NCBI RefSeq assembly: GCF_963506605.1
Contig: NC_083276.1
Location: 104,408,001 to 104,472,000, forward strand
Length of the DNA stretch: 64,000 bases
Source of the DNA: Zootoca vivipara
Lineage: Eukaryota
Reading direction: 5' to 3'
Positions 4,317 to 18,035 of the stretch are shown here, one piece after another. How positions within the stretch are numbered: the stretch's first letter is position 1; each line of letters begins with the position of its first letter. The notes beneath the pieces were generated by a model. The model ran no database searches, was not told the DNA's origin, and saw only the letters and a list, made by a program, of their open reading frames with translations. The position numbers and the translations under genes are program-made.

Positions 4317-4343
4317 CTGAAGAAGTGTGCATGCACACGAAAG
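4317..4343 (+). mobile_element. Penelope-like fragment with truncated hammerhead core
   Basis: CTGAAGAAGTGTGCATGCACACGAAAG is identical to 14700-14726 and stops before the cleavage site. Confidence 0.8.
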
Positions 4344-14560: not shown

Positions 14561-14584
14561 GTCGACTGGAACTGAATGCAGATA

Positions 14585-14832
14585 AAATAAAAAAATTCCT
14601 TCAGTAGCACCTTAAAGACCAACTAAGTTTATATTTTGGTATGAGCTTCCATGTGCATGCACACTTCTTCAGATACACTAGAAACGGTTTCTAGTGTATC
14701 TGAAGAAGTGTGCATGCACACGAAAGCTCATACCAAAATATAAACTTAGTTGGTCTTTAAGGTGCTACTGAAGGAATTTTTTTATTTTGCTTCGACTCAG
14801 ACCAACACGGCTACCTACCTGTAACTAGAACT
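14585..14832 (+). mobile_element. Penelope-like retroelement insertion with inverted terminal segment
   Basis: 14-bp TSD ACTGAATGCAGATA (14571-14584, 14833-14846); arms 14584-14685 and 14687-14788 are inverted copies; tail GACCAACACGGCTACC as recalled for reptile Penelope elements. Confidence 0.88.
14696..14733 (+). ncRNA. Minimal type I hammerhead ribozyme motif (Penelope-associated)
   Basis: GUAU-CUGAAGA-A-GUGUG(CAUG)CACAC-GAAA-GC-UC-AUAC: stem I GUAU/AUAC, both catalytic boxes, stem II and loopless palindromic AGCU stem III; predicted cleavage after C14729. Confidence 0.8.
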
Positions 14833-16164
14833 ACTGAATGCAGATAGTCTCAAAATAGGGTGCAGTCCAGGAAACATAAGCATATACTTAACTTTCCAGC
14901 TGAAATCAATGGGAAGCAAACATGCTTAAACTTGTCTCCATTGCAACTCACGGAATGCAAATATTTTGAACACAAATTCTTATTGAATTACACAAAGCGA
15001 CCACTAGCACACAATATGGCTGTGACTTGTATTTGGCATATTGATGTCTTCTTACAAGCGGGTTTTTTTTTTTTTTTTTTGGTCCTCAATTTCAATCTGT
15101 TGTATTTCCCCCTTGAATTTGCTCTTTGACAACTATGGTACACTTCCCCCCCCCCATTATGCGTGTTTTTCTGTACAATAGAATGTTTAAAAAGCAAACA
15201 AGCCTTCTCTGTTCCTAAACCATTTTATCTGTGTAATCCTACCTACACAATTCCTGAAATGTAATTCTGCTTCTCTTCCCTCTCCCAGCTGGCTGAGATC
15301 CACAGGTTAAAGGCTTTACCTGCAGAAAACTCTTTCAAAACTTTTGTCCAAAGGATTACAGTTATCATTCTAAGGCAACCAAACATCCCTCCTTCTCTTA
15401 GGATTTGATTGCTCAAACATGCTCCTTTTTGTTCTAAAGATTTCATTAAATTCAAGGAATGGGTGTCAAGAGTGGACTGAGCTAAAATGCTTCATTTTGA
15501 AGCGTTATTCCAGAGGTTCTTACTGCTTACTCATTTAAAAGGTAAACTTTTCTTGCGTTGAGCCTTGTGTCAATCATCACTTTCTTACGGCCCCTAAGCT
15601 TCTCTTTTCTCCATTAGAAGCTGTTAGCATCTTCAAAGTCATATCAAAACACTGTTTGTTCTGCCCTTTGATTTCCCTCACACAGAAATTTCAAAGACGA
15701 CAGATCTATTTGAGAGAAGGGGGAAGGGTGTCTATTAGGTGGGCATTTGTCTCTGAGTGTTAAAGAACTTGGCAGAAGTAGCAATACTTCTCATAAAAGA
15801 AATTTGGATGCAAATTGTTTGTATCCTACCAGCCTTTCCAGACTATTTCTGTCACTTCATAAAATGCACCCACCTCGCAGTAGTTTGCCAGCCAGCAAAG
15901 CTCCCTTTAGAGAGGCAAATGGCGTTTGTTTATTTCTGATGCACTCGTTTTTTTATGCCTGGCATATTTCAAATGCTTCGAACAAGTAGGAAGGTTCTTT
16001 TAGATCAGGATTGCTCCTTGATGACCCCAGCGATGACTCACAATGACAAAAGTCTTACCTCAGAACAGAACTCTATGTTTTGCAACTATCATTAATTGAC
16101 TTGTAGCTTTTCCCTAACACCCCCCCCCCAAAAAAAATTCCCGCCTTGGACTTCTGTGTCATTC

Positions 16165-17937: not shown

Positions 17938-18035
17938 GAAGAAGTGTGCATGCACACGAAAGCTCATACCTATGACAAACTTAGTTGGTCTCTAAGGTGC
18001 TACTGGAAGGATTTTTTATATTTTTTGTTTCGACT
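17938..18035 (+). mobile_element. Penelope-like fragment; hammerhead lacking the 5' CU of CUGA
   Basis: GAAGAAGTGTGCATGCACACGAAAGCTCATACC...CTTAGTTGGTCTCTAAGGTGCTACTGGAAGG...TTCGACT aligns to 14702-14797. Confidence 0.88.

What the first reader, a model, noticed from the sequence alone, without database searches (positions are those of the whole stretch)
14571..14846. Hammerhead-bearing Penelope insertion forming a 205-bp palindrome with a ribozyme motif on each strand
Seen: ~102-bp arms (14584-14685 and 14687-14788) meet at a 1-nt centre with only 2 mismatches, inside a perfect 14-bp TSD. The plus arm has a complete minimal hammerhead. Both mismatches fall in the minus-arm hammerhead, at the stem II base and at the catalytic GAAA (now GGAA). 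Established: Penelope-like elements carry minimal type I hammerheads with a loopless palindromic stem III that are reported to cleave as dimers, and they often insert with an inverted segment. Inference: a read-through transcript would fold into ~100 bp of dsRNA that sequesters the ribozyme and could be an ADAR or Dicer substrate. The two changes may be simple decay (one is a CpG transition) or loss of cleavage on one strand.
Basis: partly seen in the sequence, partly recalled or inferred. Interest (0 to 1): 0.72.

Follow-up and report, generated by a model that had tools for sequence, protein, structure and literature searches.

The report
Mirror-image stump of Penelope retroelement
This 205-base DNA palindrome is real but ordinary: it is one of over a thousand back-to-back stumps of a very abundant Penelope-type jumping gene, likely built on the spot by copying the start of the element's RNA onto both cut ends of the target DNA, and its two mismatches look like plain decay.

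Summary
Observation confirmed: arms, 1-nt centre, two mismatches, 14-bp TSD and hammerhead motifs are as described. The right arm is 100% identical to the pLTR of a young Neptune-type Penelope-like element with an intact RT/GIY-YIG ORF. The genome holds 17,000 exact hammerhead copies and about 1,400 tight head-to-head sites. Inverted copy, one-sided tail and TSD are the published PLE architecture.

Across copies, one arm ends at a U-tract and the other about 40 nt further on. The short arm usually reaches further 5' (38:5), so each arm holds sequence the other lacks. 5' ends pile up at the first base of hammerhead stem I, often with an extra G, and not at the cleavage site. This favours priming from both cut ends on a capped RNA over simple fold-back (inferred).

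The mismatches match family-wide decay, with no sign of selected ribozyme loss. No RNA covered this locus's flanks in the one run laid. This scan reached the same two-ended reading before, in other genomes.

The parts
14571..14584 (+). left target-site duplication (14 bp; its last A is shared with the short arm)
14584..14685 (-). short, inverted pLTR arm: element positions 1-102, ending in the U-tract; substitutions at 14649 (A13>G) and 14651 (C11.1>U)
14639..14676 (-). minus-strand minimal hammerhead motif, damaged (G10.1-U11.1 wobble, GGAA)
   Evidence: sequence
14686..14686 (.). single G at the centre, templated by neither arm (full copies have T before position 1)
14687..14832 (+). long pLTR arm, element positions 1-146, 100% identical to 14 other listed copies; in full elements the ORF start codon follows directly
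14696..14733 (+). intact minimal type I hammerhead motif; G14696 (element position 10) is the family's commonest 5' end; predicted cut after C14729
14789..14832 (+). 44-nt one-sided tail between the two 3' end sites
   Evidence: PMC11167929, PMC8557442
14833..14846 (+). right target-site duplication

Best explanation
This is a 5'-truncated, head-to-head insertion of a young Neptune-type Penelope-like retrotransposon, likely made at this site when both ends of a staggered cut primed reverse transcription on the element's RNA. Shown: identity with the element's pLTR, one arm ending at the U-tract and the other 44 nt further on, and one TSD around both. Inferred: the element's GIY-YIG nuclease cut both strands 13-14 nt apart. 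One 3' end primed just before the start codon and the other in the U-tract, both on the 5' pLTR of a transcript. Both cDNAs ran off at the same RNA 5' end (position 1 here, position 10 in most copies), one gained an untemplated base, and the two were joined end to end. The hammerheads are passengers of the pLTR; the insertion lacks the TATA box and ORF. The two substitutions are most likely later neutral decay.
For: Family: an intact 901-aa ORF with RVT_1 and GIY-YIG follows this pLTR in L091 and L092.

Architecture: I examined 95 tail-anchored insertions (95 of the first 100 of 6,182 places). 62 have an adjacent inverted arm, and 51 of these close with a TSD of >=8 nt (11 dropped). TSDs are 12-15 nt in 42 of 51, and the inverted arm ends at 94-107 in 44 of 51. 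41 of 49 centre-anchored sites are one long plus one short arm.

Neither arm is a plain copy of the other: the short arm lacks the tail yet reaches further 5' in 38 cases, against 5 for the long arm and 7 ties (p=2.5e-7). The arm starting at position 10 is the short one in 13 of 16 further pairs. The short site primes on its own: window 32368-32447 is a lone short arm inside a 13-bp TSD.

RNA 5' end: 41 of 142 5' ends fall at positions 7-14 and 2 of 142 at the ribozyme cut. 5,426 copies have a non-T base before G10, and 57 of 63 inspected are true junctions. That base is G:A = 69:20 in the first 100 rows, against 19:33 at control position 12 (hand counts; p=2e-6). The extra G occurs on long (12) and short (28) arms, and on both arms of L298. 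An untemplated C after G10 recurs in DNA contigs of X3 and X4 (table 5c). A TATA-like run starts about 33 nt upstream of G10.

One source: the arms share the subfamily allele in 40 of 40 scoreable pairs (10 unscoreable) and share rare variants (L298, L333).

Biochemistry: the Anolis PLE protein cuts and extends both strands, starts at two sites one tail apart, and does not need ribozyme cleavage (PMC11167929, main text).
Against: The mechanism is read from genomic scars only. At this locus both arms begin at exactly the same base, which fold-back also allows. A hybrid route gives the same end product: the short cDNA folds back and meets a tail cDNA from the other end. Central deletions after insertion could also create asymmetry. 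The extra G can come from microhomology with the other arm. The RNA reads showed no pile-up of starts at G10 (table 6; these are not 5'-end libraries). Position 1 is a rare 5' end (21 matches), so a start site there is a guess. The junction samples come from the first 45 Mb of one contig. A published discussion prefers self-priming on an antisense template (PMC3846280, Discussion).
Confidence: 0.7

Rival explanations
1. Same element, but the palindrome formed by fold-back: one cDNA snapped back at its 3' end and copied itself, either alone or in a hybrid route where a second primer supplied only the tail.
For: The arms share alleles and rare variants. Some junctions sit on self-complementary sites or on a 2-bp stem with a 4-nt loop, recurring at 5 loci. 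Self-priming is proposed in PMC3846280 (Discussion). The hybrid route also predicts that the short arm reaches further 5'.
Against: Pure fold-back cannot give each arm private sequence (38 of 43 unequal pairs). Cap-like bases occur on both arm types and on both arms of one insertion. 1-nt centres, and offsets of several hundred nt between the arms' 5' ends, fit end joining better than a loop.
Confidence: 0.22
2. The locus works as a regulatory dsRNA or ribozyme switch, with cleavage selectively lost on the minus strand.
For: A read-through RNA would fold at -172 to -183 kcal/mol. Both changes lie in one hammerhead. A13G is 11 times commoner than A14G (256 vs 23). Short arms carried more private changes than long arms in two sets (53 vs 15). 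RNA reads cross head-to-head joints of other copies.
Against: There is no core-specific excess of changes, and the short-arm changes spread over positions 23-85. The arm bias did not repeat in a third set (17 vs 13). A>G is about 9 times commoner in G[A]A than in A[A]A along the whole element (7/2022 vs 1/2618, p=0.025). There was zero RNA depth on the unique flanks in X21. In the hairpin the core is buried whether mutated or not.
Confidence: 0.05
3. The palindrome is a non-autonomous mobile unit (MITE-like or retrozyme-like) that is copied whole.
For: Tight palindromes are numerous, and a few junctions recur.
Against: None of the other 19 position-1 matches has this centre. Centres and both outer ends vary from site to site. 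There are no head-to-tail ribozyme repeats at this locus.
Confidence: 0.03

Closest known systems
EN+ Penelope-like element insertions with an inverted 5'-truncated copy, a one-sided 30-40 bp tail and a TSD (PMC8557442 passages; PMC3846280 passages and Discussion)
   Same: Head-to-head pLTRs, a palindrome at the junction, a tail at one end only, and one TSD around the whole unit.
   Different: This is the minimal form, with no ORF sequence. The tail is 44 nt, and the centre is a single untemplated base.
Minimal type I hammerheads of metazoan PLE pLTRs (PMC4209133, parts 1-2 of 4 read)
   Same: Bulged base between positions 9 and 10.1, G10.1-C11.1 pair, 4-bp helix I, palindromic helix III without a loop. 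Pairs of motifs on opposite strands are already noted there.
   Different: Stem II is itself a 14-nt palindrome. The predicted most stable dimer pairs through stem II (-30.6 kcal/mol), not as the active double hammerhead (-11.1).
Poseidon element of Anolis carolinensis, PAc (PMC11167929, main text read)
   Same: Two reverse-transcription start sites one tail apart. Both strands are cut and extended, and the ribozyme is dispensable for insertion in vitro.
   Different: This element has the Neptune/Nematis linker zinc-finger motif. Its hammerhead and both end sites lie upstream of the start codon, not inside the ORF.
L1 twin priming (recalled, from no call)
   Same: Both ends of the cut act as primers and give a 5' inversion.
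   Different: In L1 the two pieces copy adjacent, non-overlapping parts of the RNA. Here they overlap almost fully, which gives a palindrome.

Membership tests
EN+ Penelope-like element | single ORF with RT and C-terminal GIY-YIG endonuclease | tested here: met
   901-aa ORF in L091 and L092, RVT_1 E 6e-12, GIY-YIG E 5e-5, both above the curated cut-off; their pLTR is 99-100% identical to this arm. The insertion itself holds no ORF.
EN+ Penelope-like element | DKG motif, and CCHH motif with two cysteines inside GIY-YIG | tested here: met
   read from the translation against the definitions in PMC8557442
EN+ Penelope-like element | pLTR-ORF-pLTR partial tandem | tested here: met
   pLTR copies about 3.0 kb apart around the ORF in L091-L094
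EN+ Penelope-like element | inverted 5'-truncated copy, one-sided tail, variable TSD | tested here: met
Neptune/Nematis type | CX2-5CxxC motif in the RT-EN linker (absent in Penelope/Poseidon) | tested here: met
   C-x4-C-xx-C ahead of the nuclease (definition)
Neptune clade | RT phylogeny separating Neptune from Nematis | not tested
   no reference RTs were on hand; Neptune is inferred from the vertebrate-type host and PMC4209133
Minimal type I hammerhead | CUGANGA, bulge, G10.1-C11.1, GAAA, palindromic loopless stem III, UH, short stem I | tested here: met
   plus arm complete; minus arm has two changes
Minimal type I hammerhead | core held constant while N7 varies among source lineages | tested here: met
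   N7 differs in 22 of 103 arms; the other six positions in 3 of 596
Minimal type I hammerhead | stem covariation | tested here: inconclusive
   within the family the stems barely vary; of 11 unrelated motifs found by a core pattern, about 4 keep a 4-5 bp stem II of other sequence and stem I is mostly decayed (read by eye)
Rfam hammerhead families | match to a covariance model | tested here: not met
   no hammerhead family at E<=10 on the locus or on a single pLTR
Minimal type I hammerhead | self-cleavage as a dimer or with protein help | not testable with these tools
   indirect only: 2 of 142 5' ends at the cut; no read starts listed there
Non-LTR retrozyme | head-to-tail tandem units, each with a hammerhead | tested here: not met
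   two head-to-head motifs only (definition in preprint 10.64898/2026.07.22.740005, part 1 of 5)
microRNA precursor | Rfam score above the gathering threshold | tested here: not met
   all hairpin hits are below gathering, e.g. 72 vs 90 bits

The most novel reading that the evidence does not exclude
Penelope-like elements insert by two-ended priming. A dimer cuts both strands and copies one capped RNA, whose first base is the first base of hammerhead stem I, from two fixed sites about 40 nt apart. The leading (U-tract) cDNA reaches the cap and the trailing one stops earlier. This single step would explain the inverted copy, the one-sided tail, the TSD and the thousands of palindromic stumps, with the ribozyme uncut in the templates used.
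Probability: 0.55. Interest if true: 0.6.

Novelty: new member of a known kind. Interest (0 to 1): 0.3.

Why it matters
The locus itself matters little: it is one of well over a thousand similar stumps. The family is useful. How PLEs form their inverted and tailed insertions is called undefined in PMC8557442, and this young family, with intact ORFs and tens of thousands of copies, gives fixed end sites, a candidate start site and junction statistics that make the two-ended model directly testable. I did not find that model for Penelope in four paper searches (listings only), but this scan's notes already hold it for other genomes.

Tried and rejected
Rfam gave no hammerhead hit, only sub-threshold miRNA hairpins.

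Host gene context: of 112 window reading frames of >=85 aa, only one had a Pfam match, a weak one below the cut-off. Whether the insertion is intronic stays open, and the N stretches could not be read.

Expression: no RNA holder was listed by the run search. In three raw RNA runs (about 6% of each read) pLTR reads were many, but 88-89% ran on into unrelated sequence and the ORF was nearly bare. No start-site pile-up at G10 or at the ribozyme cut was listed.

ADAR imprint: A>G was not enriched in palindromic arms (3/1713 vs 3/749). A>G and T>C places in RNA were about equal and cannot be told from copy differences.

A13G as a selected or subfamily change: rejected. It occurs on several subfamily backgrounds (20 of 256 places inspected) and fits the context rate.

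Position 1 as a common capped start: rejected (21 matches, 3 with G).

A splice acceptor before position 9 as the source of the 5' ends: considered, but the ends lie at G10 with unrelated upstream sequence.

Faster decay of the short arm: seen in two sets, not repeated in a third, so not claimed.

Ribozyme cleavage as the maker of template 5' ends: not supported.

Presence or absence in other species was not tested. No supplementary files were read; those of PMC11167929 (Figs S1-S2) may bear on strand-specific start sites.

Full report
Observation. The palindrome is as described: arms 14584-14685 and 14687-14788, centre G14686, mismatches only at 14649 and 14651, and an exact 14-bp repeat at 14571-14584 and 14833-14846. 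I number the right arm 1-146 from 14687. The plus-strand hammerhead spans positions 10-47 with the predicted cut after 43 (C14729). The minus arm covers 1-102 and carries C11.1>U and A13>G. The right arm has a 44-nt unpaired tail. Contigs of runs X3 and X4 enter the insertion from both flanks, and those of X6, which differs at several flank letters, from the left. No listed piece spans the centre.

Identity. The 146-nt arm is 100% identical to 14 other listed places. In full copies the start codon follows position 146 and opens a 901-aa ORF with RVT_1 and GIY-YIG. The protein has the DKG, CCHH and C-x4-C-xx-C motifs, which PMC8557442 gives for the Neptune/Nematis type. The genome has 17,000 exact matches to the 35-nt hammerhead, 6,182 to the tail motif and 1,415 head-to-head matches with a gap of at most 16 nt, against 2 for the control. 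An inverted truncated copy, a one-sided 30-40 bp tail and junction palindromes are described in PMC8557442 (passages) and PMC3846280 (passages and Discussion). Minimal hammerheads in pLTRs, including pairs on opposite strands, are described in PMC4209133 (parts 1-2). The structure is therefore known.

How it formed: the ends. I parsed 95 of the first 100 tail places. 62 have an adjacent inverted arm, 30 do not, and 3 run off the locus. Of the 62, 11 were dropped for lacking a TSD of 8 nt or more, or for not reaching the pLTR. Among the 51 kept, TSDs are 12-15 nt in 42 and the inverted arm ends at 94-107, a U-tract, in 44. The tailed arms of 94 of the 95 end at 135-147. Of 49 sites chosen by their centre, 41 are one long and one short arm. 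A lone short arm with a 13-bp TSD at window 32368-32447 shows that the U-tract site can start an insertion alone. The short arm reaches further 5' than the long arm in 38 of 50 insertions, the long arm in 5, and 7 tie (p=2.5e-7). Each arm then holds sequence the other lacks, which a single fold-back cannot give. The arms share the subfamily allele in 40 of 40 scoreable pairs and sometimes share rare variants, so both come from one source.

How it formed: the 5' ends. 41 of 142 lie at positions 7-14 and 2 of 142 at the ribozyme cut. 5,426 copies have a non-T base before G10, and 57 of 63 inspected are real junctions. By my hand count of the first 100 rows that base is G 69, A 20, C 11, against G 19, A 33, C 48 at position 12 (G vs A p=2e-6). 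The extra G appears on both arm types and on both arms of L298. An untemplated C after G10 recurs in DNA contigs. A TATA-like run starts about 33 nt upstream of G10. I infer a capped transcript starting at the first base of stem I; copying of a cap as an extra G is recalled from other retroelements. RNA reads did not show that start, and microhomology may supply some of the Gs. PMC11167929 (main text) shows a PLE protein extending both strands from two start sites one tail apart, with ribozyme cleavage dispensable. Two-ended priming is therefore my best reading (0.7), and fold-back or a hybrid route the main rival (0.22). This locus is a minor case: both arms stop at position 1, a rare end (21 matches), and no other match shares its centre, so it was built in place.

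The two mismatches. Of 25,642 copies of the 27-nt motif, 256 carry A13G and 37 carry both changes. About 23 are expected, given the CpG change in 9 of the first 100 rows. The 30 double-variant loci inspected are mostly old copies of 81-96% identity. A14G is much rarer (23), but along the whole element A>G is about nine times commoner in G[A]A than in A[A]A, so no selection is needed. Core and non-core sites change alike (5/1132 vs 49/7103), while N7 varies between source lineages (22/103), as expected if selection acts only on source elements. Short arms carried more private changes than long arms in 84 insertions (53 vs 15; 27 vs 10 insertions, p=0.008), spread over the whole arm. The tail-anchored part of that set is biased, and a third set of 16 pairs, itself biased the other way, gave 17 vs 13. 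I leave it unconfirmed. Two changes 2 nt apart in an otherwise pristine insertion could also be one clustered event.

Function at this locus. A read-through RNA of either strand would form a hairpin of -172 to -183 kcal/mol and bury the core, so neither ribozyme should fold. Even as free monomers, two copies are predicted to pair through the palindromic stem II (-30.6) rather than as the active dimer (-11.1). No RNA depth lay on the unique flanks in X21, of which about 6% was read. RNA reads do cross head-to-head joints of other copies, so the family as a whole may make dsRNA; siRNA from Penelope inverted repeats is known in flies (PMC3681739, passages). The host gene context is unresolved.

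Novelty and verdict. This is a new member of a known kind, interest 0.3. Four searches did not list a paper giving two-ended priming or cap copying for Penelope (listings only). Notes of this scan on other genomes reach the same reading. I had formed mine before that look-up (notes), and their agreement is not independent evidence.

Noticed in passing
window 32368-32447: Lone short arm of an older subfamily (positions about 50-103) inside a 13-bp TSD: the U-tract site primed an insertion with no partner arm.
   Followed up: yes
window 37999-38118: Lone minus-strand short arm with an intact hammerhead core, inside a TSD of about 13 bp with one mismatch.
   Followed up: partly
window 17938-18035 and 4317-4343: Two further fragments of the family; the second holds only the hammerhead core and stops three bases before the cut site.
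   Followed up: no
L333, L334, L335: Both arms share the rare A13G change (L333 shares a second rare variant too), so templates with a damaged ribozyme core can be inserted, or the arms were homogenised later.
   Followed up: partly
84 insertions; 16: Short arms carried about 3.5 times more private substitutions than long arms, more so in older subfamilies; not repeated in a third set. Unexplained.
   Followed up: yes
L238, L241, L247, L250, L253: Five independent insertions share one junction near position 1, a 2-bp microhomology around a 4-nt loop.
   Followed up: partly
G000:C1:2777825-2779653: Four hammerhead copies in the same orientation 598 bp apart: a possible head-to-tail, retrozyme-like array.
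   Followed up: no
L260, L269, L289-L297: Decayed hammerhead-like motifs with other stem II sequences, probably from older PLE families.
   Followed up: partly
L006, L010, L018, L025, L026, L217: Insertions of this family sit directly against the first bases of their own ORF, consistent with tandem arrays or self-targeting at the pLTR-ORF joint.
   Followed up: no
L332 (= L031), position about 90-98: The U-tract of the long arm looks locally inverted (A-run), a possible template-switch scar near the short priming site.
   Followed up: no
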